Below are positions 4,397 to 39,580 of a stretch of 64,000 nucleotides of DNA, piece after piece (position 1 is the stretch's first letter; each line of letters opens with the position of its first letter). A program made the position numbers and the translations under genes. Below the pieces are notes generated by a model that saw nothing but the letters and a program-made list of their open reading frames with translations, was not told where the DNA came from and did no database searches. Origin of the DNA: a virus (lineage: Duplodnaviria; Heunggongvirae; Uroviricota; Caudoviricetes); IMG/VR virus record IMGVR_UViG_3300028563_000009; one strand, written 5' to 3'.

Positions 4397-5089
4397 ATGA
4401 GCACACTGCAATTGGTGAGCTTTGCCGATATAAACGAAGGTAGACGAGTGTTGGGAGAAAAGGCTTCCGCACTTGGATACCACAAACTGAAGCAGGCGAC
4501 AGGGAGTAACCTGTTAACTACTCTACGAGACTTGGATATCCGTCCATTCACGTCGGGTAGTGTGGACACCTACAAGGCCAGCAAAGAGAAGATTGGTTGG
4601 TGGTCTGGTAAGGTGTGGGCTGTTCGCTTGCTCGTGCTGAGTTTCCTGTTGGCTCCCCTCATGGCCAAATCCATTCAATTGAGCGACTTAACCTACGACG
4701 CTGCACCCTTCTCCGGTCTTGCCTCCCATCACATCCTTGTGCCTCTGGGCATCACTCTCACCATTCTGACAGGCGTGGCCATCGTCCTGTGTCAGATAAT
4801 TGGGTGGGTAATGCTGGTCGGCGAAGATTCACGAGGAAAACGATCCAAAATCTCTTGGCGTAGGTATACCATACAGGATTACCAAGGCACTATACCTGAG
4901 TTCGCCCTGAACAAGATGGTACAGATTGCTGCGGCCTACCCCGAGGCCAGATTCCAAGTCGATCAACTCGAAAAACACACAGAGAACTGGATTGTGCGGG
5001 AGCCTGACCCCTTTCTAGTTGTTTACGCAGGCAACGAACAGTACTACATCGAAGTCTGGGATGAGAAGGAGTACGAGAAGACCCTGTAA
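4397..5089 (+). CDS. membrane protein (230 aa, 2-3 TM helices)
   Basis: GGAGGA RBS; hydrophobic segments LLVLSFLLAPLMA, ITLTILTGVAIVLCQIIGWVMLV. Confidence 0.55.
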   Translation: MSTLQLVSFADINEGRRVLGEKASALGYHKLKQATGSNLLTTLRDLDIRPFTSGSVDTYKASKEKIGWWSGKVWAVRLLVLSFLLAPLMAKSIQLSDLTYDAAPFSGLASHHILVPLGITLTILTGVAIVLCQIIGWVMLVGEDSRGKRSKISWRRYTIQDYQGTIPEFALNKMVQIAAAYPEARFQVDQLEKHTENWIVREPDPFLVVYAGNEQYYIEVWDEKEYEKTL

Positions 5090-6075: not shown

Positions 6076-6509
6076 CGACAGATTCCAGACCAGCAGAGAT
6101 TGTTAAGGCGTGGGTAGCAGCGTTGCTATCCGGGGAGTACAAACAAGGGAAATTCTATCTTCGACATGAAGATAAGTACTGCTGCTTAGGCGTGCTGTGT
6201 GAGTTGGCAGTCAAAGCCGGGGTTATCGTGCCGGGGAAGCCTTCCCTCGGTAGCGCCGATAAAGTCACAGTGTATGTGGGGGAGACTAAAACCCTTCCAC
6301 GCGAGGTGGCGTGGTGGGCGGGTGTTGGCGCAAACCCTCAAATGTCAAGCACGGGTCATACCTTGGGATACCTGAACGACAATGGCATGAAGTTTCCGGA
6401 TATAGCAGAACTTATCCGGGCAAACCTCCATCCGGAACCGGAAAGTGTCTCTCAACCTGATGGGTTCGGTACTTACGACCCCAACGACAACGGAAATCAA
6501 CCTATTTAG
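6066..6509 (+). CDS. paralog family 1 member, 147 aa
   Basis: Identical YCCLGVLCELAVKAGVI motif. Confidence 0.6.
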   Translation: MELTTDSRPAEIVKAWVAALLSGEYKQGKFYLRHEDKYCCLGVLCELAVKAGVIVPGKPSLGSADKVTVYVGETKTLPREVAWWAGVGANPQMSSTGHTLGYLNDNGMKFPDIAELIRANLHPEPESVSQPDGFGTYDPNDNGNQPI

Positions 6510-6517
6510 GAGGGGAA

Positions 6518-6958
6518 ATGGCAAACAAGAAGCAGTTGTTGAAACTCGCGGACTTTCTCGAAATAGTCCCGGCTAATAAGGTGTGCATGGGATCATGGGC
6601 AAACTTGGGCGACTTGGAGAAAGAATGTGCCACTCAGGAAGACATGCTACATACTTGCGGTACAACAGCGTGTCTTGCGGGATGGGCCGTTATAGCCAAT
6701 GGTTACTGTGTTACTGAAAAGGCGAGAGCGGAGAAAAAGCAGATCAGGACTCTTGATATCGCGGACAGAGCCGCTAGACTACTCGGGTTGACATACGACC
6801 AGCAGCAGGCTCTGTTTTATAGGTCTGGCTGGCCGAAGGAATTCCAGTTCCAACTGGACTTTAGTTACGAACAAGGCAAAAAGCTGGCCATTAGTTACGA
6901 ACAAGGCAAAAAGCTGGCCATTGCCCGTGTAAGGCACATGGCAGAGACGGGAGAGTGA
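6518..6958 (+). CDS. hypothetical protein with CGTTACLAGWA motif (distant relative of family 1), 146 aa
   Basis: GGAGGGG RBS; contains in-frame 30-bp tandem duplication. Confidence 0.55.
   Translation: MANKKQLLKLADFLEIVPANKVCMGSWANLGDLEKECATQEDMLHTCGTTACLAGWAVIANGYCVTEKARAEKKQIRTLDIADRAARLLGLTYDQQQALFYRSGWPKEFQFQLDFSYEQGKKLAISYEQGKKLAIARVRHMAETGE
6861..6920. repeat. perfect 30-bp tandem duplication (x2) inside CDS
   Basis: TTAGTTACGAACAAGGCAAAAAGCTGGCCA repeated; encodes SYEQGKKLAI twice. Confidence 0.9.
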
Positions 6959-27424: not shown

Positions 27425-28566
27425 TGAAGGCAATCCTGCTTCAGGGTATGGCGTTCGGCGACGAGAGCAAAGGCGCGACAGTCGATGCTCTTTGTCGTAA
27501 GTTCCCTGTGGATCAGATAGTTCGGTATAATGGCGGTCCACAGACGGCCCATAACGTAGTAACACCACAAGGAGTACATCACACTTTCAGCCAGTTCGGG
27601 TCTGGAATGCTAGCTAACTCTACTGTTAAGACACACTTATCTCGTTTCATGTTGATTAACCCGTTTAGTATGATGAGGGAAGCCGCCGCGTTGCCTACCT
27701 ATACTCCGGTCTGGAACCGAGTTACCATAGACAGACAGTGCGTAGTCATCACTCCAATGCACAAAAGGCTTAATCAGTTAAGAGAGAAGGCAAGACGGGA
27801 AGGTGCCCACGGAAGTTGTGGGGTCGGTGTAGGGGTTGCCAGAGAACTCAGCCTGAGGTATGGTGATAGAGTGTTGTTAGTGGAAGACTTCGCGGACGAA
27901 AACAGAATCCACATGAAGCTATTGTTCATGTTCTCGCAGTTAGGTTTCGAGATAGACAGGCTACAGAGAGAACTGAAGATTCCGGATATGGACTTTGATT
28001 TCGAGCACATGGCCCGTGCTTACAAAGATTTCGGAAGTTACGCAAAAGTCGTTGACAAACTGGAGCCGAGTGACTTAATGTTGTTTGAAGGCGCTCAGGG
28101 CGTCCTGTTGGATGAGCGGAAGGAATTCCTGCCACACAACACTTGGACAAACTGCACCTTCGGAAACGCAGACAACCTCTTGTCAGAAGTCGGATGCAGT
28201 GATAGATTAAGGATTGGGTGCTTCAGATCGTACTTCACGAGGCACGGCCACGGGCCATTCCCAACGGAAGACGTGGACTTGACAAAATCCTTTAAGGAAG
28301 CGCATAATGGAACCGGAGAGTTTCAGGGTGCTTTTAGGTGTGGTAAATTTGATTTTGATTTAGCCAAAAAAGCACTTGACATTGTTGGCGGTTTGGATTA
28401 TCTTTCTATTAGTCACTTGGATCGGGCCTCGTTAGAAGTGGGCGATGAAATTTCAAGCACTCTAGGAGTTCCGGTAGGAGTCTGGGCCACGGGTCCCACA
28501 TCAAACCACCGTGGTTTTAACTGTGAGTTGATCGACAGACTTGACAAGGTTTTGGAAACGTGTTAA
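27424..28566 (+). CDS. adenylosuccinate synthetase (PurA) family enzyme, PurZ candidate (380 aa, GTG start)
   Basis: GDESKGATVD P-loop region, RYNGGPQTAHNV, AHGSCGVGVGVARE; GGAGGAG RBS. Confidence 0.65.
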   Translation: MKAILLQGMAFGDESKGATVDALCRKFPVDQIVRYNGGPQTAHNVVTPQGVHHTFSQFGSGMLANSTVKTHLSRFMLINPFSMMREAAALPTYTPVWNRVTIDRQCVVITPMHKRLNQLREKARREGAHGSCGVGVGVARELSLRYGDRVLLVEDFADENRIHMKLLFMFSQLGFEIDRLQRELKIPDMDFDFEHMARAYKDFGSYAKVVDKLEPSDLMLFEGAQGVLLDERKEFLPHNTWTNCTFGNADNLLSEVGCSDRLRIGCFRSYFTRHGHGPFPTEDVDLTKSFKEAHNGTGEFQGAFRCGKFDFDLAKKALDIVGGLDYLSISHLDRASLEVGDEISSTLGVPVGVWATGPTSNHRGFNCELIDRLDKVLETC

Positions 28567-28578
28567 AATGGATTTGGG

Positions 28579-28866
28579 AATAGCGTTAGAAACAGTTACT
28601 TCTCATGCTTAATGAATTGCCGAAAGGCAGTCTCTGTTTCGCTTGTTCTTTCCCATATTTGAAGTTCTAGGTAGTGTAGATACAGTTACTTCGGTTAAAG
28701 TAGCTTCGGCTATGAGAGGTTTCGACGCCTCACCTTCTTTCGAGAAGGGTTACTGTGTCGCTTGTGCTCCTAGATGTTTTAAGGTTCTAGGTAGTGAAGA
28801 CCACGGTTACTTCTTTGGTGATAAACACCGTATGTCGCTTATTCTCCTAGATAAGATTAGCCTAGT
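28579..28866 (+). repeat. three tandem imperfect repeat units (R1-R3): conserved flanks GTAGTGTAGAnACAGTTACTTC / CTGTnTCGCTTGTTCT..TTCTAG bracketing variable hairpin inserts
   Basis: Direct reading; flank segments AAACAG/CTGTTT, ATACAG/CTGTGT co-vary; UUCG tetraloop hairpins in R2 insert. Confidence 0.7.
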
Positions 28867-29083
28867 TCGCAAGAGCGCGAGTCGGCAAACCCCCGGGAAC
28901 CCTTGATTTCGAATATATAGGGGCAACAAGGCAATGGTATGCGACAGTGGCTAAAACAGGGGCATTATACGGGTAGCTCCCGTGCCCCGAAGGTTGTAGG
29001 GTGGCAGAGAGTATTAGAATTGCGGGTCCTGTTACGGACTCAACGCTGGCGACGAATCTCCAGCCCCTACTAAAATTCAGTAG

Positions 29084-29217
29084 CAGTAGTGTTGAAACAA
29101 TTCCTTCTTCCAAACCGTAGGTCATGGGTTCGAATCCCATCTATCAGGGTTTCGATAGTAGCTCAGTTGGTAGAGCAACAGTACAAGGTGTTTCGCTCGT
29201 TCTCTGCTATAATCTGG
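29084..29217 (+). ncRNA. repeat unit R5 carrying tRNA-like module (T-arm ATGGG-TTCGAAT-CCCAT, acceptor-like hairpin CTATC/GATAG, D-arm TAGCTCAGTTGGTAGAGCA)
   Basis: Module at 29124-29177; flanks TGAAACA / TGTTTCG complementary. Confidence 0.4.
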
Positions 29218-29339
29218 TAACGGGTTTCACCGGTCGTGGCGGAGTCGTTAAAGAGAACAAAAACGGGAATGACTCTAACCGGTAAAGTGACCACGAATTT
29301 GCTTGCCGCCTAGAGCGTGATTATGTTGCCAATTTTTTA

Positions 29340-29476
29340 GGTATAGTGTTAGATACAGTTACTTCAATGCTAATGAAGAAACGTCGGTTCGAATCCGACT
29401 CCCGGTGTGTGCCGGGATCGTCTAGGGGTTAGGACGCTAAAATATCTGTGTCGCTTGTTCTTACCTAAGTTCTAAG
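29340..29476 (+). ncRNA. repeat unit R4 carrying complete but circularly permuted tRNA-like cloverleaf (AC arm, T-arm, acc-3', 5-nt loop, acc-5', D-arm)
   Basis: 29362-29436: CTTCA-ATGCTAA-TGAAG, GTCGG-TTCGAAT-CCGAC, TCCCGGT/GCCGGGA, GTCT-AGGGGTTA-GGAC. Confidence 0.4.
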
Positions 29477-29480
29477 AAAT

Positions 29481-29660
29481 ATGAGAATAACCCAGTGTTG
29501 TTTAGCATTTACGTCGGCTGTGGCGTTAGTAGTTGCCGCAATAGCGTCCAAACCACAAGGACTATCGAGTCCTTTAGAAGCATTAGGATTCTTGGTTTTG
29601 CTTGGAAACGTGGCGATACAAGTTTTTGGCGTCGTCATCGCAGTACACGAACTGGAGTAG
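29481..29660 (+). CDS. small membrane protein (59 aa)
   Basis: Weak RBS; hydrophobic. Confidence 0.3.
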   Translation: MRITQCCLAFTSAVALVVAAIASKPQGLSSPLEALGFLVLLGNVAIQVFGVVIAVHELE

Positions 29661-29661
29661 T

Positions 29662-30021
29662 ATGGGTATAAAAGACCTACTTGAAAATGAAATGAAGGCC
29701 AGCCACGAGTTTTCTAAAAGTAACTTTGGTGCTCAGGTGGGAGCGGCATACCCAGAGTTAGTAAAAGAAGTTTCTTCTAGCGATCCCGTATGCGCGACGT
29801 TGATGGTCGAATTGTGTATTGCTGGCATTACTGGAAAACAGGTAGCGGACAGTCTTAAGAAGCATAATGACTCAAAGGATTTACAGAAAGCTATCCTTGA
29901 GAATCTTCCCTCGTTTAACGGGCAGTTGTCCATGCTATACTGGGGTATCAACATAGGGCGTAAACTGGAAAAAGAAAGCCTCGAAGTTAACAAGCTTGAG
30001 GAAATGTTTGGAGGGAAATGA
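29662..30021 (+). CDS. hypothetical protein (119 aa)
   Basis: GGAG RBS; ATGA coupling to next gene. Confidence 0.45.
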   Translation: MGIKDLLENEMKASHEFSKSNFGAQVGAAYPELVKEVSSSDPVCATLMVELCIAGITGKQVADSLKKHNDSKDLQKAILENLPSFNGQLSMLYWGINIGRKLEKESLEVNKLEEMFGGK

Positions 30022-31385
30022 AAACCAATACTGCAATTAAGACCCCCGCTCCGAAGACGCACGAAGGTGCCACGGCAGCGCGTATCAATCCTGAGCAACA
30101 GCTTCGTCGTGTTGTTCTAGCATCCATGTTGTTTGAAGACACCTTCTATTTGGACGGAGTTAGCTCTGCCCAGATCGTTGAAGACTCGGTTCAGGAAGTT
30201 CTTAAGAAAAAGAATGGCCCTCAAATCGTGTCCGATCTGGCATACGAAACCCGTACTAACGGTAAACTGCGCCATATCCCGTTGTTCTTGGCCCTGACTC
30301 TTGTTAGAGCAGGCAACAAAAATACCAAACTCGGCGAGGAATGCCGTGCCGTGGTTGCGGAAACGCTGACCAAGATCATCCAGCGTCCGGACGAACTGGC
30401 GGAGTTTTTAGCTCTGTACTGGAAGGACAAGAAAGTTCCTTTGTCCAATCAGGTTAAGAAAGGACTCGCTGCTGCGTTCCAAAAGTTTGACAGGTACTCT
30501 CTGTCGAAGTACGCGAACCGGGAAGGCTCTATCTCTCTGCGCGACGTGTTGTTCTTGGTACACCCGCGTCCTCTGAACTCCGATCAACAGGAGTTGTGGA
30601 ACGAGTTGGCCGAGAAGAAATTGGTTGCTCCGGATACTTGGGAGTCGAATCTGTCTGCTGGTGCGGATAAGAAAGAGACTTTCATTCGTCTGATCGAAGA
30701 GAAGAAGCTGGGTGCTTTGGCACTACTCCGCAACTTGCGTAACATGCAACAGGCGGGAGTCCCGGATGATACCATCCGCAAAGCTTTGTCCGAAATGAAG
30801 ACCGAACGTGTTCTTCCTTTCCGGTATATCTCTGCCGCTAACTACGCTCCGCAACTGGAGCCTGAGTTGGAACAGGCCATGTATCGTAGCCTTAAGGATC
30901 ACGAGAAGCTGTCCGGCAAGACCGTTCTGTTGGTGGACAATTCTGGAAGCATGGGTTCTCCCGTTTCCGGAAGATCGCAAATCAGCAGAGCCGATGCCGC
31001 TCAAGCACTGGCAATGTTGGTCCGTGAGATCAGCGAAACCAGCGAAGTGATTGTGTTTGGTACGACGGCTGGAAGCATTCCTCCCCGTAGAGGATTTGCT
31101 CTCCGCGATGCTGTCAGACATAGCCAACACGGAGGCGGGACTAACACGGAAGTTGCTAAGAAACTAGCAGATAAAGTTGGATACGACAGACTCATCATCT
31201 TCACCGATGAACAGTCGCATCAGGCTCTCTCTGCTCCTAAGGAAGGCTCCAAGGCTTACGTCATCAATGTGGCCGCATACCAGAACGGAGTTGGGTATGG
31301 GAAGTGGGTTCATATTGACGGGTTCTCGGAAGCTGCGGTAGACTTTATCCAGCAGTATGAGAAAGAGAAAAATGAGCTTGCTTAA
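30018..31385 (+). CDS. rsr: Ro60/Rsr orthologue (TROVE domain + C-terminal vWA), 455 aa
   Basis: LRHIPLFLALTLVRAG, ALLRNLRNM (TROVE-like), C-terminal LLVDNSGSMGS (MIDAS) .. IIFTDEQSH. Confidence 0.6.
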   Translation: MKTNTAIKTPAPKTHEGATAARINPEQQLRRVVLASMLFEDTFYLDGVSSAQIVEDSVQEVLKKKNGPQIVSDLAYETRTNGKLRHIPLFLALTLVRAGNKNTKLGEECRAVVAETLTKIIQRPDELAEFLALYWKDKKVPLSNQVKKGLAAAFQKFDRYSLSKYANREGSISLRDVLFLVHPRPLNSDQQELWNELAEKKLVAPDTWESNLSAGADKKETFIRLIEEKKLGALALLRNLRNMQQAGVPDDTIRKALSEMKTERVLPFRYISAANYAPQLEPELEQAMYRSLKDHEKLSGKTVLLVDNSGSMGSPVSGRSQISRADAAQALAMLVREISETSEVIVFGTTAGSIPPRRGFALRDAVRHSQHGGGTNTEVAKKLADKVGYDRLIIFTDEQSHQALSAPKEGSKAYVINVAAYQNGVGYGKWVHIDGFSEAAVDFIQQYEKEKNELA

Positions 31386-31578
31386 AATACTGGCGGGTCT
31401 CTCGTGGGTCGTAATTGGTTTTTACGTCCTACAAGGGGCCTTCTGGCTTATGACCTACCCGAGCGACTTTACTTTCTTGGGCGGTATACTCTCGGTATTC
31501 CTTTACGGCTTTGTAACCTTCAAAATGATACAATACGCAGTAAGAAAATTCTTTAAGGAGAATAATGAACCTCGTTAA
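31372..31578 (+). CDS. small two-TM membrane protein (68 aa)
   Basis: Upstream partner of SPFH gene. Confidence 0.4.
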   Translation: MSLLKILAGLSWVVIGFYVLQGAFWLMTYPSDFTFLGGILSVFLYGFVTFKMIQYAVRKFFKENNEPR

Positions 31579-32461
31579 GTTGGCTCTGGCAGGATTCCTA
31601 ATGACTTTCCTCGCCGGTTGCGGAGTAGATAGAATTGGACCCGGCCACGTCGGTATTAAGATCAACATGGCTGGCGATAACAAAGGTGTGCTGGATACAC
31701 CAGTGAGTACGGGATGGGTGTTTTATAACCCCCTCGGCACCACGGTGATCGAGTACCCAACCAACATGAAGAATGTAGTGTGGACTAAAAGCCTCGATGA
31801 AGGCAACGCGAAGGACGAAAGCATTACGTTCACCAACAAAGAGAGCATGGTGGTTAACGCCGACTTCTCTCTGAACTACTACCTACTTCCTGAGAAGGTT
31901 CCGGCCTTTTATGTGAAGTTTCTCCAGAGGGATTTGGACGATTTCAGCAACGGGTACCTTCGTACCATCGCAAGAAATTGCGTGAACGACAGTGCTGGTA
32001 AGTATGAGATCGCACAGATCATGGGGGACAACACTGCCTTCCTGCTAGATAGTAAGGCATGTATTAACAAAACTCTCACGTCTTATGGTATCTTTGTCGA
32101 TAGCTTTGGCTTGATTGGTGCTCCGCGTCCTCCTCCGGTGGTAATCGAAAACATCAACGCCAAGATTCAGGCGCAACAGATCGCTCTCCAGAAGCAGAAC
32201 GAACTCCTTCAGGTTCAGGCAGATGCCGCGAAACAGGTGGCCGCTGCTGAAGGTAAGGCTAAGTCTATGGTCACTGAGGCCAACGGAGAAGCGGAAGCTA
32301 ACCGTATCAGAGCAGCTAGCATTACCCCGGCTATCATCCAGAAGCTTTCTCTGGAGAACCAGCACGACGCTATCTGGCGTTGGGATGGACACATGCCAAC
32401 CACTGTAGCCAACGGCGATAAGGGGGGACTGTTGTTCAACATCCCTACGGACAGTAAGTAA
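31565..32461 (+). CDS. SPFH/band-7 domain lipoprotein (298 aa)
   Basis: Lipobox FLAGCG; SPFH core plus coiled-coil QAQQIALQKQNELLQVQADAAKQ. Confidence 0.55.
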   Translation: MNLVKLALAGFLMTFLAGCGVDRIGPGHVGIKINMAGDNKGVLDTPVSTGWVFYNPLGTTVIEYPTNMKNVVWTKSLDEGNAKDESITFTNKESMVVNADFSLNYYLLPEKVPAFYVKFLQRDLDDFSNGYLRTIARNCVNDSAGKYEIAQIMGDNTAFLLDSKACINKTLTSYGIFVDSFGLIGAPRPPPVVIENINAKIQAQQIALQKQNELLQVQADAAKQVAAAEGKAKSMVTEANGEAEANRIRAASITPAIIQKLSLENQHDAIWRWDGHMPTTVANGDKGGLLFNIPTDSK

Positions 32462-32847
32462 TGGGTATTGAAGAAGTAGTAGAAAAAACAGTAACCATGA
32501 GCTTTGAGGATTTTGGGTACTTGTCCAAGACTCAAAGATTCTGGGACGAACAAGCTGAGTGGTCCCGAGCCACGTTTGGTAGCGATACCGAGCGTGGCCC
32601 ACTCGGACCTCTAAAGCATCTAGAGAAGGAAACCGAGGAAGCACGGCAGTCTTGGATTAAGCAAGACATTCCGGAAGCTAAGGTTGAGATCGCTGATTGT
32701 CTTTTCCTTACATTCGATGCGGCACGTAGAGCAGGCATGTCTTTAGACGACCTTCTAGACACAGCTTTCCGGAAACTGGAAATTAACAAACAACGCGAGT
32801 GGCAGAAACCAACGAACGACGGGCCAGTGGAGCATGTGAGGGAATGA
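32461..32847 (+). CDS. MazG-like nucleotide pyrophosphohydrolase (128 aa)
   Basis: LKHLEKETEEA .. EIADCLFLTFDAARRAGMSLDDLLDTAFRKLEINKQR (EExxE..ExxD). Confidence 0.55.
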   Translation: MGIEEVVEKTVTMSFEDFGYLSKTQRFWDEQAEWSRATFGSDTERGPLGPLKHLEKETEEARQSWIKQDIPEAKVEIADCLFLTFDAARRAGMSLDDLLDTAFRKLEINKQREWQKPTNDGPVEHVRE

Positions 32848-33233: not shown

Positions 33234-34241
33234 ATGAAAAACATATATCGCTGTGAATTCGGAAGTCATCTGTACGGTACTAATACGGAGGCTTCCGATC
33301 ACGATTTTAAGTCGATCCATATCCCATCCTCGGAGCAGATTCTACTTCAGAGGGTTCAGGATAGTACCGGCCATGTCGTGAAGAGGGAAGAAGGGGATAG
33401 AAACACCAAGGACGATACTGATGACGAAAGTTACTCCCTTCAGAGATATTTATCTCTTCTAGCCGAAGGGCAGACCGTAGCTATCGATATGTTGTTCGTC
33501 CCTAAACCTCTGATTACAAGTGAAATATGGGAAGAAATCGTTGCGAACAAGGACAGGCTGGTCACTAAGAAGTCTTATTCCTTCGTGGGGTATTGTCGCA
33601 CTCAGGCCAATAAGTATGGTATAAAGGGTAGTAGGGTGTCAGCGGCTAAAGAGGCTATGGACTTCTTCGAGGAGGCAATTACTTTCAAAGGGCCGTTGGC
33701 TAAAGTAGGTGACTTGGGTTTGTTCCCCGCTGGAGAACACTCTCACACGGTGGTCAAGGAAACCACTCCCGGAAAGTTTGAGACGTACTTCGAGTGCTGC
33801 AATCGTATGGTAGGATATAAGAACACTCTCAAGGAAGCGCACCATATCTTTTCCCGCATCTACGAGGAGTACGGCAAGAGAGCCAAGCTGGCCGAGTCCA
33901 ACAATGGGATCGACTGGAAGGCTTTGAGTCACGCAGTAAGGGTAGGACATGAGGCTTTGGCTTTGTTATCAACTGGCGAAATTTCTTTTCCGTTGTTTAA
34001 CGCACCGCATTTACTTGATATTAAAAAGGGCAGACTCCCCTACAAGGAAGTTGCTCAAGAAATAGAAGAGTTGCTGGAGGACGTGGAAGCGGCCTCTAAA
34101 ACATCCCCGCTCCGGAAAGAGCCGGACTACAAGTACATCGATGGGTTGGTAAGGAGAGTTTATGGTAGAGAAGTTTTTAACGATTACTGTTTGGACAGTA
34201 CTTACCACAATGGCGTATGCTCTGTTGCAGGGGAGGTTTAA
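33234..34241 (+). CDS. Pol-beta superfamily nucleotidyltransferase (335 aa)
   Basis: GSHLYGTNTEASDHDF (GS-x9-DhD) plus downstream Asp. Confidence 0.5.
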   Translation: MKNIYRCEFGSHLYGTNTEASDHDFKSIHIPSSEQILLQRVQDSTGHVVKREEGDRNTKDDTDDESYSLQRYLSLLAEGQTVAIDMLFVPKPLITSEIWEEIVANKDRLVTKKSYSFVGYCRTQANKYGIKGSRVSAAKEAMDFFEEAITFKGPLAKVGDLGLFPAGEHSHTVVKETTPGKFETYFECCNRMVGYKNTLKEAHHIFSRIYEEYGKRAKLAESNNGIDWKALSHAVRVGHEALALLSTGEISFPLFNAPHLLDIKKGRLPYKEVAQEIEELLEDVEAASKTSPLRKEPDYKYIDGLVRRVYGREVFNDYCLDSTYHNGVCSVAGEV

Positions 34242-34586: not shown

Positions 34587-34669
34587 GGCCGCGTGGTGAA
34601 ATCGGCAGACACACTTGCCTTAGGAGCAAGCGCGAAAGCATGGGGGTTCAAGTCCCTCCGTGGCCACCA
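34587..34669 (+). tRNA. tRNA-Leu (anticodon UAG), type II, CCA encoded
   Basis: Acceptor GGCCGCG/CGTGGCC, anticodon stem CTTGC/GCAAG loop CTTAGGA, long variable arm, T-loop TTCAAGT. Confidence 0.75.
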
Positions 34670-34671
34670 GT

Positions 34672-34763
34672 GCGCTAGTGGCGAAGCTGGTTGAAACGCA
34701 TCGGACTTAAAATCCGACACTGATAAGTTCACAACGGGGGTTCGAACCCCTCCTAGCGTACCA
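34672..34763 (+). tRNA. tRNA-Leu (anticodon UAA), type II, CCA encoded
   Basis: Acceptor GCGCTAG/CTAGCGT, anticodon stem TCGGA/TCCGA loop CTTAAAA, long variable arm, T-loop TTCGAAC. Confidence 0.7.
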
Positions 34764-38212: not shown

Positions 38213-38664
38213 TGTCGAAGATGAATAGGTTGGGTAATGTTACCAACAAGTATCAAGGGGATTTCAAAAGAGTTCTATGTGTTTGTTCGGGAGGGATACT
38301 TAGATCGCCTACCACTGCCGTTGTGTTATCTCAACCTCCCTACAACTACAATACCAGAGCCGCAGGAACAGACCAAGAGTTTGCCCTCGTGCCTGTCGAT
38401 GACGTTCTCATTGAGTGGGCAGACGAGATCGTGTGCATGGAGAAGGAGCACGAGGAAGCGTTAAGAAGTAAGTTCAAGATCGAAGCTCCCATCTACGTGC
38501 TGGGTATCGAAGATAGGTATCCTTACAGAGACCCCCTGCTAATCAGCCTTATCACCCAGAACTACAATGACATACAGATAATGAAGATGGGACTGGGGCC
38601 TAAGTATACGGTAGGGGACCACATCAACGAGAAAGGTTTGAAAAAGCTAGATGAAGAAGGATAA
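38212..38664 (+). CDS. low-molecular-weight protein tyrosine phosphatase (150 aa)
   Basis: P-loop VLCVCSGGILRSPTA (C-x5-R). Confidence 0.6.
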   Translation: MSKMNRLGNVTNKYQGDFKRVLCVCSGGILRSPTTAVVLSQPPYNYNTRAAGTDQEFALVPVDDVLIEWADEIVCMEKEHEEALRSKFKIEAPIYVLGIEDRYPYRDPLLISLITQNYNDIQIMKMGLGPKYTVGDHINEKGLKKLDEEG

Positions 38665-39580
38665 TCCTTTGTTCGCCATAGCAGCCGACAACTACGTGAA
38701 TGAAATCTTGGGGTTGAACAAGTACGGCAGCTTTAAGTCTAACAAAAGAATAGTCAAACATCTAATACAAGAGTTCGGTCACAAGCGGGTGCAGAGCGTA
38801 ACGCGCCAAGATATCCAGAGGTATATCGGTAAGTTAAACGAAACAATGGGCACTGAGTATCTCCGCCATCACCTCAGTACGTTTCGTGGTATAATGGAGT
38901 ATGCCGACGACGACTGGGTAATGCCAAGGGTAAAACTGCCCAAACGAATCAAGCCGAAGCAGGATTTTTACTCGTTCGAAGAAGCCCGAAAACTGATGGA
39001 AATAACCTCTGGTCAGGATAAGGTTTTGGTCATGGTACTGGCAGAGACTGGTTGTAGGTTAGGGGAAGCATTGGCTTTAACCCCGGATGATATAAAACCG
39101 TACGAGGTCAACATCACTAGGAACGTGTACGAGGGGTTCGTGCAGGATACACCGAAGACAGATTCCAGTATCCGGAAAGTTACAATCTCTGAAAGACTTT
39201 ACAATCAGATACTTACACTGAAGAGAAAACAAAACGAGTTTATTTTCCAGAGTAAGACCGGGAGGCCGGAGTGGCCACAGATTCTAAGTGTAAGATTCCG
39301 GGAGATTTGTGACAAGCATTCGGTGGAATACAAAGGGTTCCACGCATTCCGCAGAGGGAACATCACAGAGTTGTGTACGGTAATTGGAATCCCTGAACGC
39401 ATCGTGGGTGTTAGGGTCGGGCATTTATCAAGCGGCACCACCCTCGGGGTGTATTGCAAAACTTTGCCGGGGTGTGATAAAATCTGGATTCCAGAGATTG
39501 AAAAAAGATTGTACTTGACAGAAGACAAACGAAATGATAGCGTAATTAGAGAGGAAATAAATGGCATTACCGACAATTAA
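38651..39580 (+). CDS. int: tyrosine recombinase / integrase (309 aa)
   Basis: LAETGCRLGEAL (box I R), HAFRRGNITEL (H-x-x-R), LGVY. Confidence 0.65.
   Translation: MKKDNPLFAIAADNYVNEILGLNKYGSFKSNKRIVKHLIQEFGHKRVQSVTRQDIQRYIGKLNETMGTEYLRHHLSTFRGIMEYADDDWVMPRVKLPKRIKPKQDFYSFEEARKLMEITSGQDKVLVMVLAETGCRLGEALALTPDDIKPYEVNITRNVYEGFVQDTPKTDSSIRKVTISERLYNQILTLKRKQNEFIFQSKTGRPEWPQILSVRFREICDKHSVEYKGFHAFRRGNITELCTVIGIPERIVGVRVGHLSSGTTLGVYCKTLPGCDKIWIPEIEKRLYLTEDKRNDSVIREEINGITDN

What the first reader, a model, noticed from the sequence alone, without database searches (positions are those of the whole stretch)
29124..29436. tRNA-like modules in circularly permuted order (T-arm, acceptor hairpin, D-arm)
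At 29362-29436 a full cloverleaf can be drawn only if the 3' half precedes the 5' half. An anticodon arm (CTTCA-ATGCTAA-TGAAG) and a T-arm (GTCGG-TTCGAAT-CCGAC) are followed by TCCCGGT, a 5-nt loop (GTGTG), then GCCGGGA and a D-arm (GTCT-AGGGGTTA-GGAC). At 29124-29177 the same T-arm, hairpin and D-arm order recurs (TAGCTCAGTTGGTAGAGCA), but with no anticodon arm. No colinear tRNA can be assembled from either. This matches the tRNA-mimic domain of YrlA-type Y RNAs, or truly permuted tRNA genes.
Basis: seen in the sequence. Interest (0 to 1): 0.75.

Follow-up and report, generated by a model that had tools for sequence, protein, structure and literature searches.

The report
Phage Y RNA array beside Ro60
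The two "scrambled tRNA" modules are the tRNA-mimicking cores of two YrlA-type Y RNAs, part of a five-unit non-coding RNA array just upstream of a phage Ro60 gene; this is a real, conserved member of an already described RNA class, not a permuted tRNA gene.

Summary
At 29124-29176 and 29383-29435 a T-arm, a capped acceptor-like hairpin and a D-arm follow each other in that order. ARAGORN and Rfam find no colinear tRNA there.

Each module sits inside a longer RNA, U4 (29082-29208) and U5 (29339-29466). Their 5' and 3' flanks pair into two stems around a conserved asymmetric loop, a variant of the published Ro60-binding motif. Three shorter units with the same stems (28576-28850) precede them, behind a near-consensus promoter. 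A Ro60 (TROVE plus vWA) gene follows on the same strand at 30018-31385.

A covariance model built on relatives finds only these five sites in the 64 kb. It also finds 2-7 such units beside Ro60 in about 75 environmental phage contigs and in phages CcrColossus, Sopo and Kikimora. Across 61 long units, 96.5% of cells pair, 28 of 30 pairs show compensatory changes, and the Levitt 15:48 pair covaries in the 17 units examined.

This is the YrlA architecture of Chen et al. 2014, which was already reported in phages. Rfam's YrlA model scores only 37.5 bits (threshold 69).

Verdict: new member of a known kind, of moderate interest.

The parts
28541..28569 (+). Sigma-70-type promoter TTGACA, 17 nt, TG-n-TAAAAT. 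The predicted start is about 28576, the first base of unit U1.
   Evidence: 11 of 12 hexamer matches with a TG extension. Consensus match only; not shown to be functional.
28576..28654 (+). U1, a short Y-like RNA. Layout: outer stem GGGAA/UUCCC, AGCGUUAG motif, inner stem AAACAG/CUGUUU, UUAC, a degenerate anticodon-like hairpin, and a GAAA-capped hairpin. It has no T, acceptor or D domain.
   Evidence: Model R1, 43.9 bits, E 1.2e-10. Motif pair found.
28667..28773 (+). U2, an intermediate Y-like RNA. It has the same outer and inner stems and motifs. The apical part is three hairpins (UUCG-capped, a degenerate T-like GAGGU-UUCGAC-GCCUC, UUCG-capped), with no D-arm.
   Evidence: Model R1, 41.0 bits, E 6.9e-10. 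Sequence.
28787..28850 (+). U3, a short Y-like RNA. Layout: outer stem CUAGG/CCUAG, AGUGAAG motif, inner stem, UUACUUC apical loop, and 3' GCUUAUUCU.
   Evidence: Model R1, 34.8 bits, E 2.5e-8.
29082..29208 (+).
- outer stem 29082-29086 with 29204-29208, plus AG/CU at 29088-29089 with 29202-29203
- 5' motif AGUGUUG, 29088-29094
- inner stem 29094-29099 with 29189-29194
- T-arm 29124-29140
- capped acceptor hairpin 29141-29158
- UA 29159-29160
- D-arm 29161-29176
- 3' motif GCUCGUU 29195-29201
It has no anticodon-like hairpin, which is the canonical YrlA topology.
   Evidence: Model R1, 74.7 bits; U4 was not in the seed. Rfam YrlA 37.5 bits, E 2.6e-6. Covariation.
29205..29213 (+). Possible internal extended -10 element, TGcTATAAT, overlapping the 3' end of U4.
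   Evidence: Read from the sequence. The scan did not list it because there is no -35 match. Weak.
29339..29466 (+).
- outer stem 29339-29343 with 29462-29466, plus AG/CU at 29345-29346 with 29460-29461
- 5' motif AGUGUUAG, 29345-29352
- inner stem 29352-29358 with 29446-29452
- UUAC (YUAY) 29359-29362
- anticodon-arm-like hairpin 29362-29378, loop AUGCUAA
- linker AAAC
- T-arm 29383-29399
- 7-bp capped acceptor hairpin 29400-29417, loop GUGU
- UC, then D-arm 29420-29435 (GUCU/GGAC type)
- 3' motif GCUUGUU 29453-29459
   Evidence: Model R1, 125 bits (a seed member). Rfam tRNA model aligns 29352-29401 as anticodon arm, variable loop and T-arm at 24.1 bits. Orthologue at L020 1404-1540.
30018..31385 (+). 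Ro60/Rsr orthologue (455 aa), the presumed protein partner of U1-U5.
   Evidence: Pfam TROVE 5.3e-16 and vWA_Ro60 1.2e-7. PDB 9KOP and 9L5Y, Thermus phage phiLo Ro60, E 4.8e-27 over residues 11-448.

Best explanation
The region 28576-29466 encodes a tandem array of five Y RNAs, probably transcribed from the promoter at 28541-28569. These RNAs are the partners of the phage Ro60 protein encoded at 30018-31385.

Every unit has the same base. A 5-bp outer stem plus two G-C/A-U pairs and a 6-8-bp inner stem bracket a conserved asymmetric loop. The clade consensus is 5' U-GG-Y-G-W-A-G and 3' C-G-N-Y-U-G-UU-CC. The window copies read 5' U-AG-Y-G-(UU, UA or AA)-(A)-G, that is AGCGUUAG, AGUGUAG, AGUGAAG, AGUGUUG and AGUGUUAG for U1-U5, and 3' GCUUGUU-CU or a one-base variant of it. 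This is a variant of the published Ro60-binding motif GNCGAAN0-1G, and I take it to be the Ro60 docking site (inferred).

The two long units, U4 and U5, carry on top of this base a YrlA-type tRNA mimic. Its parts are a T-arm, an acceptor-like helix closed by a loop, U8-N9, and a D-arm. All the tRNA elbow nucleotides are present (G18G19, the U54-U55-C56-R-A58 T-loop positions, G53-C61, and a G15:C48 Levitt pair). The domain should therefore fold into a tRNA L-shape without a free CCA end.

U5 also keeps a 5-bp, 7-nt-loop hairpin with an anticodon-loop signature between the Ro module and the T-arm.

By analogy with characterised systems, Ro60 binds the stem module. The apical module (tRNA mimic or hairpin) then recruits or gates a second factor, which directs the ring-shaped Ro60 to structured or damaged RNAs during infection. 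The analogies are D. radiodurans and Salmonella Rsr-Y RNA-PNPase, and phage phiLo Ro60-Yrl-host PNPase. Candidate second factors are host PNPase or a protein that recognises the tRNA elbow.

Shown here: the sequence elements, their secondary structure by covariation, and the genomic linkage to Ro60. Inferred: Ro60 binding, the effector, and processing of the array into separate RNAs.
For: 1. Linkage. Model R1 hits only the five sites in the window. In 72 metagenomic Ro60 loci it gives 139 hits, all on the Ro60 strand and nearly all upstream of Ro60. The 16 distinct viral-contig loci searched and phages CcrColossus, Sopo and Kikimora show the same pattern.

2. Structure. In 61 long units, 96.5% of cells pair, against 41-51% when partners are slid. 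28 of 30 pairs have compensatory changes. The covariation score is 0.786 against 0.12 or less, and 0 of 500 shuffles reach it. The 17-sequence set gives the same result. In 30 short units the outer stem is 96% paired and the inner stem 92%. Both window copies have UAG...CU where relatives have UGG...CC, a compensatory change.

3. tRNA mimicry. The Levitt pair is G15:C48 in 11 sequences and A15:U48 in 4, with one A:C exception. U8-A9 occurs in 54 of 61, the D stem is GCUC/GAGC in 42 of 61, and the T loop is UUCRANU.

4. Homology to YrlA. Rfam RF02553 matches U4 at E 2.6e-6 and matches units of Sopo, CcrColossus and Kikimora at 30-52 bits.

5. Literature. The YrlA architecture (Ro motif, T, AS, D, optional V after YUAY; within 4 kb of Ro60 on the same strand; 22 phages) is in PMC4201824. 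CcrColossus is named as having Y RNA-like ncRNAs, and phage phiLo Ro60 binds two upstream Yrl RNAs and host PNPase (PMC12135203).

6. The Ro60 identity of the neighbouring gene.
Against: - Rfam's YrlA model stays below its gathering score for U4 (37.5 against 69 bits) and does not report U5 at all.
- The window's 5' motifs match only 2-4 of the 6 fixed positions of GNCGAAN0-1G (AGUGUUG, AGUGUUAG, AGCGUUAG, AGUGAAG). The clade consensus GGYGWAG is closer.
- No expression, Ro60-binding or processing data exist for this phage.
- No PNPase or other obvious effector is encoded among the window ORFs scanned against Pfam.
- The covariation alignments were fitted to the model, which inflates the percentage paired. 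The slid controls and the independent MAFFT/RNAalifold result argue this is not the cause.
Confidence: 0.85

Rival explanations
1. U5 (and perhaps U4) is a Y RNA that RNase P cuts in the acceptor loop and that then receives CCA. This would give a two-piece tRNA-like RNP with a free acceptor end, as shown for M. smegmatis YrlA. It is a refinement of the best explanation rather than an alternative to it.
For: - U5 has a 7-bp acceptor helix, which Chen et al. give as the determinant of RNase P cleavage of M. smegmatis YrlA.
- U5's orthologue in the closest relative keeps A-CCA plus a 9-nt spacer in the acceptor loop (L020 1404-1540).
- A few other units (L065, L069, L004) have N-CCA at that place.
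- L008 and L012 carry an RNase P RNA hit near their Ro60 gene.
Against: - In the window the loops are GUGU (4 nt) and AGGGUUUC, with no CCA.
- Most family members cap the helix with UUCG or GNRA tetraloops. That argues for a permanently closed hairpin and leaves no single-stranded leader for RNase P.
Confidence: 0.08
2. These are true circularly permuted tRNA genes. Their transcripts would be circularised or rearranged into functional decoding tRNAs, as in the red alga Cyanidioschyzon merolae.
For: - The order of the halves (3' half before 5' half) fits. For U5, every cloverleaf arm is present, including a hairpin with an anticodon-loop signature.
Against: - U4 has no anticodon arm.
- The acceptor ends are joined by a short loop.
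- The flanks form conserved, covarying stems with a Ro-site motif, not a processing motif.
- The loci always accompany Ro60.
- The 34-36 triplet varies freely (23 triplets in 39 hairpins). In U5 it is GCU (Ser), without the long variable arm that, from my own knowledge, bacterial tRNA-Ser has.
- The splicing-endonuclease pathway used for permuted tRNAs is, to my knowledge, archaeal and eukaryotic.
Confidence: 0.02
3. These are non-functional debris of a tandem tRNA array: the 3' half of one decayed tRNA gene followed by the 5' half of the next.
For: - Ro60 genes in this phage clade sit inside large tRNA arrays.
- Adjacent real tRNAs give weak partial hits to the model (model positions 47-103; L101 4698-4831).
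- The published origin model for YrlA is a dimeric tRNA transcript (bioRxiv 10.1101/312249).
Against: - That model describes an origin, not a present state.
- The acceptor strands always pair although their sequence differs in every locus.
- The flanking stems and motifs are conserved across Ro60 proteins only 41-67% identical.
- Debris would not keep 96% pairing with compensatory changes.
Confidence: 0.02
4. The tRNA mimics act mainly as decoys or sponges for host tRNA-targeting defence nucleases or tRNA-modifying enzymes. Ro60 would serve only to stabilise them.
For: - The anticodon-loop signature is conserved: U33 in 34 of 39, purine-37 in 38 of 39, A38 in 32 of 39, with variable 34-36.
- D-arms of several sequence types occur within arrays.
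- RNA-repair-associated genes lie nearby: RlaP at 33234-34241 and SPFH at 31565-32461. Their role in countering anticodon nucleases is discussed in PMC7824862.
Against: - There is no direct evidence.
- U4 and about a third of the long units lack the hairpin.
- Short units have no tRNA elbow.
- The best-conserved part is the Ro module.
Confidence: 0.05

Closest known systems
YrlA (Y RNA-like A; Rfam RF02553; Chen et al. 2014, PMC4201824; structure of the Salmonella tRNA-like domain, bioRxiv 10.1101/312249)
   Same: - Encoded close to a Ro60 gene and on the same strand.
- 5' and 3' ends pair into a stem with a Ro-site motif near the 5' end.
- The tRNA-like domain runs T-arm, closed acceptor-like stem-loop, UA, D-arm.
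- The D stem is GCUC/GAGC, the elbow nucleotides are present, and the Levitt pair covaries.
- A conserved YUAY sits before an optional extra stem-loop upstream of T.
   Different: - The score is below Rfam's gathering threshold.
- The Ro motif is GGYGWAG (AGYGUU(A)G in the window) rather than GNCGAAN0-1G.
- The 3' strand (CGNYUGUUCC) is as conserved as the 5' strand, whereas Chen et al. say only the 5' strand is recognisable in the Salmonella and M. smegmatis RNAs.
- The extra stem-loop has anticodon-arm dimensions and loop signature, followed by a 5-nt AGGUC-type linker. Salmonella YrlA is described as lacking an anticodon loop.
- U5 has a minority D-arm type (GUCU/GGAC).
Phage Y-like RNAs: the Y RNA-like ncRNA(s) cited for CcrColossus, and Yrl1/Yrl2 of Thermus phage phiLo (PMC12135203)
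   Same: - Phage-encoded Ro60 with several Y-like RNAs immediately upstream.
- My model finds seven units of this same family upstream of CcrColossus gp139.
- phiLo Ro60 is the closest solved structure to the window's protein.
   Different: - The phiLo Yrls are described as stem-bulge-stem RNAs with a CGAA motif; the passages of that paper I searched contain no mention of a tRNA-like domain.
- The window phage is not close to any cultured phage.
- No GenBank record examined annotates these RNAs.
M. smegmatis YrlA and YrlB
   Same: - Several Y RNAs lie upstream of Ro60 and are processed from one precursor.
- One has a tRNA mimic and a 7-bp acceptor stem.
- A second, shorter one lacks the full mimic.
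   Different: - The mycobacterial YrlA is cut by RNase P and gains CCA.
- The window units have short capping loops and no CCA.
- There are five units here rather than two.
Circularly permuted tRNA genes (Cyanidioschyzon merolae; from my own knowledge)
   Same: The 3' half of the cloverleaf is encoded before the 5' half.
   Different: - Those genes yield ordinary mature tRNAs through a circular intermediate.
- Here the acceptor stays capped, the ends of the RNA form a protein-binding stem, and the context is Ro60.
Metazoan Y RNAs and Salmonella YrlB
   Same: The short units U1-U3 consist of a Ro-binding stem plus a small apical loop or hairpin, without a tRNA elbow.
   Different: The sequence motifs differ, and the short units share the UUACUUC element of the long units.

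Membership tests
YrlA-type Y RNA | Encoded within about 4 kb of a Ro60 (TROVE) orthologue, on the same strand | tested here: met
   U5 ends 552 nt and U4 810 nt upstream of the TROVE plus vWA_Ro60 gene at 30018-31385, all on the + strand. All 139 hits in 72 related loci are also on the Ro60 strand.
YrlA-type Y RNA | 5' and 3' ends pair into a long stem | tested here: met
   The outer stem (7 pairs) and inner stem (7 pairs) are 97.7% and 93.0% paired. All 14 pairs show compensatory changes in 61 sequences.
YrlA-type Y RNA | Ro60-binding motif GNCGAAN0-1G near the 5' end | tested here: inconclusive
   A conserved motif sits at the equivalent place. The clade consensus GGYGWAG matches 4-6 of the 6 fixed positions. 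The window copies match only 2-4 of 6: AGUGUUG, AGUGUUAG, AGCGUUAG, AGUGAAG. The first G-to-A change is compensated in the 3' strand.
YrlA-type Y RNA | tRNA-like domain in the order T-arm, closed acceptor-like stem-loop, UA, D-arm, with the tRNA elbow nucleotides | tested here: met
   Searches give the order. T, AS and D helices are 99.0%, 96.1% and 98.4% paired with compensatory changes. The T loop is UUCRANU, G18G19 is present, and U8A9 occurs in 54 of 61. U5 has U8-C9.
YrlA-type Y RNA | Levitt pair 15:48 kept by covariation (G:C or A:U) | tested here: met
   G:C in 11, A:U in 4, A:C in 1 of 17 units. Both window units are G15:C48.
YrlA-type Y RNA | Reaches the Rfam RF02553 gathering score (69 bits) | tested here: not met
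   U4 scores 37.5 bits (E 2.6e-6) and U5 is not reported. Units of CcrColossus, Sopo and Kikimora also score only 30-52 bits, so the curated model does not cover this phage subgroup.
YrlA-type Y RNA | Bound by Ro60; modified by TruB and DusA | not testable with these tools
   Needs immunoprecipitation or EMSA, and modification mapping.
Circularly permuted tRNA gene | Yields a mature tRNA with free acceptor ends and an anticodon; a processing motif lies at the junction of the halves | tested here: not met
   The acceptor strands are joined by 4-nt and 8-nt loops. U4 has no anticodon arm. The flanks form Ro-site stems. Processing itself cannot be tested here.
Ordinary colinear tRNA | Detected by ARAGORN, or by Rfam RF00005 at 29 bits or more | tested here: not met
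   ARAGORN finds nothing at 28500-29600. RF00005 gives only a partial match (model positions 6-65) of 24.1 bits at 29352-29401.
tmRNA (including two-piece permuted tmRNA) | tRNA-like domain plus a tag reading frame; Rfam or ARAGORN detection | tested here: not met
   Only a 13.9-bit T-arm match to RF00023. ARAGORN reports no tmRNA.

The most novel reading that the evidence does not exclude
In this phage lineage the Y RNA array may be a set of complete, capped cloverleaves that each imitate a different tRNA. The D-arms differ in sequence type: the canonical YrlA form, GUCU/GGAC, and, from my memory of tRNA sequences, a tRNA-Leu-like form in CcrColossus. The hairpins have a genuine anticodon-loop signature but varied 34-36 triplets. 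On this reading Ro60 would present the mimics to host tRNA-targeting enzymes (anticodon nucleases, modification or repair enzymes). Alternatively, members that retain N-CCA would be opened by RNase P into two-piece, possibly chargeable, tRNA-like RNPs. That would make the array a programmable tRNA-decoy or repair platform rather than a simple PNPase tether.
Probability: 0.1. Interest if true: 0.75.

Novelty: new member of a known kind. Interest (0 to 1): 0.4.

Why it matters
The finding is a correct call of a Y RNA from raw sequence, and it extends a known class rather than founding one. It has practical value in three ways.

- **A large unannotated subgroup.** Phage Y RNAs of this kind occur in at least about 75 environmental contigs, and in CcrColossus, Xanthomonas phage Sopo and Brevundimonas phage Kikimora. 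They escape Rfam's YrlA threshold and are not annotated in the GenBank records examined. Parts of them are called as tRNAs: "tRNA-Gln" in the CcrColossus record, "tRNA-Ser" in the Kikimora record, and an ARAGORN "tRNA-Asn" call in Sopo.
- **Arrays.** These phages carry 2-7 paralogous units, short and long, behind one promoter. That gives a natural series for asking what the tRNA mimic adds to a Ro60-binding stem.
- **Origin.** Some units retain an anticodon-arm-like hairpin, a class-I-type variable linker and, in places, N-CCA plus a spacer in the acceptor loop. This is the clearest sequence-level support I have seen for the published proposal that YrlA arose from tandem tRNA transcripts.

Tried and rejected
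- **ARAGORN and Rfam gathering-mode scans** found nothing at the site.
- **Plain MAFFT plus RNAalifold** recovered only the outer, T and D stems. The acceptor and inner stems are too variable to align by sequence, so I built a covariance model with a hand-set structure.
- **Nucleotide search against cultured phages** gave only weak matches inside the Ro60 gene.
- **The two spacers** inside the array (28855-29081 and 29214-29338) do not fold better than shuffles (z -1.0 and -1.7). They match no Rfam family and get no model hit. A GGCGGAG...GCUUGCCGCC pair at about 29238-29310 looked like a more canonical Ro module but has no comparative support.
- **A short anticodon-stem-like helix** between UUA(C) and the UAA after the D-arm is not supported, because both sides are conserved and show no clear compensation (by eye).
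- **The colinear-tRNA fold** that ARAGORN reports in Sopo and Kikimora needs a GWAG/YUAC D-stem. Column 12 is A in 30 and U in 29 sequences, while its would-be partner stays A in 54 of 61, so that fold is not conserved.
- **Literature not held.** The supplement of Chen et al. 2014 and the two Wolin-lab reviews were unavailable. I could not check how many CcrColossus units were already listed.
- **My first hairpin census** (perfect stems only) undercounted at 16 of 61. Allowing one mismatch gives 39 of 61, against 20.7% of shuffled regions.
- **Other ideas.** An attP or integration-site reading and a cis-regulatory leader were considered. I dropped both because the elements are tied to Ro60, not to the integrase at 38651-39580, and nothing else matched in Rfam.
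Full report
**1. Observation**

The sequence at 29124-29176 reads T-arm (AUGGG-UUCGAAU-CCCAU), a hairpin (CUAUC-AGGGUUUC-GAUAG), UA, and a D-arm (GCUC-AGUUGGUA-GAGC).

The sequence at 29362-29435 reads a 5-bp hairpin with a 7-nt loop (CUUCA-AUGCUAA-UGAAG), AAAC, a T-arm (GUCGG-UUCGAAU-CCGAC), a 7-bp hairpin (UCCCGGU-GUGU-GCCGGGA), UC, and a D-arm (GUCU-AGGGGUUA-GGAC).

ARAGORN and Rfam at curated thresholds report five ordinary tRNAs elsewhere in the window and nothing here. The stated refutation test, an ordinary colinear tRNA at these coordinates, is therefore not triggered.

**2. Context**

The window is a phage genome. It encodes a lysozyme, a family A DNA polymerase, a primase-helicase, a UvrD helicase, ribonucleotide reductase, an integrase and a MazG-like protein, nearly all on the + strand.

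The modules lie in a 900-nt gap without convincing ORFs, between an adenylosuccinate synthetase gene (ending at 28566) and small ORFs that precede a 455-aa gene at 30018-31385. That gene has a TROVE domain and a Ro60-type vWA domain. Its only matches among solved structures are the Ro60 of Thermus phage phiLo (9KOP and 9L5Y, E 4.8e-27, residues 11-448).

An SPFH/band-7 gene (31565-32461) and an RlaP nucleotidyltransferase (33234-34241) follow. RlaP is a family linked to RNA repair in phages (PMC7824862).

**3. What the modules belong to**

In permissive mode Rfam's YrlA model matches 29093-29198 at 37.5 bits (E 2.6e-6; gathering score 69). The tRNA model partly matches 29352-29401 as anticodon arm, variable loop and T-arm (24.1 bits).

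Using the Ro60 protein as an anchor, I collected 18 viral contigs (Ro60 41-59% identical) and 80 metagenomic contigs. One of these is the same phage, and the closest other relative is 67% identical.

A structural pattern scan found T-arm, capped hairpin and D-arm modules beside Ro60 in most of them. The hairpin sequence differs in every locus but always pairs.

Printing the flanks showed a shared frame:
- an outer stem;
- U-GG-YGWAG;
- an inner stem;
- (U/A)UAC-UUC;
- often a 5-bp, 7-nt-loop hairpin, then an AGGUC-type linker;
- T-arm, capped acceptor helix, UA, D-arm;
- a purine-rich linker;
- the 3' strand of the inner stem;
- C-G-N-Y-U-G-UU-CC;
- the 3' strand of the outer stem.

Both window copies have UAG...CU where relatives have UGG...CC, which is a compensatory change.

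**4. An array, not two modules**

The same 5' and 3' motifs with complementary flanks occur five times between 28576 and 29466.

I built a covariance model (R1) from U5 and five relatives, leaving the variable hairpin unpaired. With filters off it scores the five units as follows:

| Unit | Coordinates matched | Bits |
|---|---|---|
| U5 | 29339-29470 | 125 |
| U4 | 29082-29212 | 74.7 |
| U1 | 28576-28658 | 43.9 |
| U2 | 28667-28777 | 41.0 |
| U3 | 28787-28854 | 34.8 |

In the search of the whole window with E up to 1, R1 reports nothing else on either strand.

U1 and U3 are short: the stems plus an apical hairpin or loop. U2 has three hairpins but no D-arm. U4 and U5 carry the full tRNA mimic.

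A near-consensus promoter (TTGACA, 17 nt, TG-n-TAAAAT; 11 of 12 matches) ends at 28569. That places the predicted start at the first base of U1. This is a consensus match only.

**5. Is the structure real?**

On 17 long units aligned to the model:
- 96.0% of cells pair, against 37-50% when the partners are slid;
- 26 of 30 pairs have changes on both sides;
- the covariation score is 0.843, against 0.09-0.13 for the slid controls.

On 61 long units:
- 96.5% of cells pair;
- 28 of 30 pairs have changes on both sides;
- the covariation score is 0.786, against 0.12 or less;
- 0 of 500 shuffles reach the observed values.

All five helices contribute: outer, inner, T, acceptor and D.

These alignments are fitted to the model, which favours it. 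However, an independent MAFFT/RNAalifold run already recovered the outer, T and D stems with many compensatory changes.

In 30 short units the outer stem is 96.2% paired and the inner stem 91.9%, with 4-6 pair types per position.

The tertiary signature of tRNA is present:
- the Levitt pair is G15:C48 in 11 sequences, A15:U48 in 4 and A:C in 1;
- U8-A9 occurs in 54 of 61;
- the D stem is GCUC/GAGC in 42 of 61;
- the T loop is UUCRANU.

**6. Distribution**

In 72 metagenomic Ro60 loci, R1 gives 139 hits at E < 1e-3. All are on the Ro60 strand and nearly all are upstream of the gene. By my reading of the table, 56 loci have at least one hit, and most of the others have less than 300 nt of upstream sequence. 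Arrays of 2-5 units are usual. Some loci (L042, L045, L094) have only short units.

The family also occurs in cultured phages:
- seven units upstream of CcrColossus gp139;
- four upstream of the Ro60 gene of Xanthomonas phage Sopo;
- four in Brevundimonas phage Kikimora;
- one downstream of Ro60 in Microcystis phage Mvi-JY20.

None of these is annotated as a Y RNA. Rfam's YrlA model scores them at 30-52 bits, so the curated model does not cover this subgroup.

**7. Comparison with what is known**

Chen et al. 2014 (PMC4201824) defined YrlA RNAs by these features:
- a position within 4 kb of Ro60 on the same strand;
- a 5' motif GNCGAAN0-1G, thought to bind Ro60;
- a tRNA-like domain made of T, an acceptor-like stem-loop (AS) and D;
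- a covarying Levitt pair.

They found such RNAs in 254 bacteria and 22 phages. PMC12135203 names CcrColossus among the phages with Y RNA-like ncRNAs. It also shows that phage phiLo Ro60 binds two upstream Yrl RNAs and forms a complex with host PNPase.

The window's U4 has exactly the canonical YrlA topology. U5 adds the hairpin after UUAC (the YUAY), which is the position of "V".

Membership is therefore met on linkage, terminal stem, domain order, elbow nucleotides and Levitt covariation. It is inconclusive on the exact 5' motif: the clade consensus GGYGWAG is close, but the window copies match only 2-4 of the 6 fixed positions. It is not met on the Rfam score. I file these RNAs as YrlA-type Y RNAs of a phage subgroup.

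**8. The 'anticodon arm'**

Of 61 long units, 39 have a 5-bp (one mismatch allowed), 7-nt-loop hairpin 3-6 nt before the T stem. Only 20.7% of shuffled regions do.

The loop shows C32 in 26 of 39, U33 in 34, purine-37 in 38 and A38 in 32, with 23 different 34-36 triplets. The pairs nearest the loop covary: 31-39 is CG 14, AU 11, UA 8, GC 4; 30-40 is GC 16, CG 15, UA 5.

The linker to the T stem is most often AGGUC. From my own knowledge, that is a typical class-I tRNA variable loop. Rfam's tRNA model reads the hairpin plus T-arm as anticodon arm plus T-arm (24.1 bits here; 30.2 bits in L008). Many short units keep the same CUUCN-loop-NGAAG hairpin.

Whether this helix or the Ro stem stacks under the D-arm in three dimensions cannot be decided from sequence. 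The published Salmonella YrlA is described as lacking an anticodon loop, so this is a modest difference from the type member.

**9. Origin**

The 2018 structure paper cites a model in which YrlA arose from a dimeric tRNA transcript. In that model T comes from the first tRNA, D from the second, and AS from the junction. Several observations here fit it:
- Ro60 genes of this clade sit inside large tRNA arrays.
- Adjacent real tRNAs give weak partial hits to R1.
- The U5 orthologue in the closest relative has an acceptor loop reading A-CCA plus a 9-nt spacer (L020 1404-1540).
- L004, L065 and L069 also have N-CCA at that place.
- D-arms of different sequence types occur within arrays: GCUC/GAGC in U4, GUCU/GGAC in U5, and a UGGCGGAAUUGGUAGACGC arm in CcrColossus. 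Assigning these to particular tRNA species rests on my memory of tRNA sequences.

**10. Mechanism**

Shown: five structured RNAs with a common conserved stem-loop module, two of them with a capped tRNA mimic, tightly linked to a phage Ro60 gene.

Inferred from the characterised systems: Ro60 binds the stem module, and the apical module recruits or gates another factor, so that the RNP acts on structured or damaged RNA during infection. Candidates for that factor are PNPase, as in D. radiodurans, Salmonella and phage phiLo, or a protein that recognises the tRNA elbow, as proposed in the 2018 paper. The neighbouring RlaP and SPFH genes fit an RNA-repair or RNA-conflict setting.

RNase P cleavage of U5, which has a 7-bp acceptor helix like the M. 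smegmatis YrlA that is cleaved in vivo, is possible. I think it unlikely here because the helix is closed by only four nucleotides, and most relatives use UUCG or GNRA caps.

**11. Rivals**

- **True permuted tRNA genes.** This fails because the acceptor is capped, U4 lacks an anticodon arm, the flanks are covarying Ro-site stems, and the elements are strictly associated with Ro60.
- **Decayed tRNA debris.** This fails on the covariation.
- **A decoy role against tRNA-targeting nucleases.** This is not excluded but has no direct support.

**12. Verdict**

It is a new member, from a poorly annotated phage subgroup, of a known RNA class. Interest is moderate. The array organisation, the anticodon-loop signature, the tRNA-junction relics and the gap in Rfam and GenBank annotation are worth recording, but none overturns current understanding.

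Noticed in passing
L008 and L012, 1081-1356 (+): A match to bacterial RNase P RNA class A (RF00010, 126.8 bits, gathering 100). It is only 276 nt long against a 367-position model. It sits at the head of an array of more than 25 tRNAs, upstream of the Ro60 gene in a viral contig. It may be a phage-encoded, reduced RNase P RNA.
   Followed up: no
L099 (CcrColossus JX100810) 2164-2231; L102 (Kikimora ON529857) 2784-2858; L100 (Sopo LR743529) 2824-2894: The GenBank 'tRNA-Gln' (CcrColossus) and 'tRNA-Ser' (Kikimora), and an ARAGORN 'tRNA-Asn' call in Sopo, lie inside Y RNA units of this family. The tRNA finders read the 5' stem strand, the anticodon-like hairpin and the T-arm as a colinear tRNA. 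These are probably mis-annotations.
   Followed up: partly
L102 (Kikimora) 6359-6704 (+): A match to permuted (two-piece) tmRNA, RF04321, at 57.7 bits (gathering 47), about 2 kb downstream of the Ro60 gene in a cultured Brevundimonas phage. It is not annotated in the record.
   Followed up: no
window 31565-32461, 32461-32847, 33234-34241, 34587-34763: Downstream of Ro60 lie an SPFH/band-7 gene, a MazG-like dATP/dGTP pyrophosphohydrolase, an RlaP RNA-repair nucleotidyltransferase and two tRNA-Leu genes. crAss001 also has an SPFH gene near its TROVE gene. No RtcB or other RNA ligase was found among the window ORFs scanned against Pfam.
   Followed up: partly
window 28855-29081 and 29214-29338: Two spacers inside the Y RNA array have no model hit, no Rfam match and no significant folding (z -1.0 and -1.7). 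The second contains GGCGGAG...GCUUGCCGCC (about 29238-29310), which resembles the ends of the Rfam YrlA consensus. There is no comparative support because no close relative covers it apart from the identical contig L019.
   Followed up: partly
window 29481-29660 and 29662-30021: Two small ORFs lie between U5 and Ro60. One is a 59-aa ORF that looked hydrophobic when I translated it by eye. The other is a 119-aa ORF whose stop overlaps the Ro60 start (ATGA). Neither has a Pfam match. In most relatives the array ends 40-300 nt before Ro60, so these ORFs look like an insertion.
   Followed up: no
L103 (crAss001 MH675552) 4543-4767: Downstream of the crAss001 TROVE gene there is a weak R1 hit (4543-4620, 29.3 bits). 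Right after it, Rfam gives a tRNA match spread over 144 nt (4624-4767, 46.6 bits). Neither is annotated. This could be an intron-containing tRNA or a divergent Y-like RNA.
   Followed up: no
L042, L045 and L094 (for example L042 813-1112): Some Ro60 loci carry four tandem short units (about 67-71 nt) and no long tRNA-mimic unit within the sequence held. The tRNA-like domain is therefore not obligatory for every phage of this clade.
   Followed up: no
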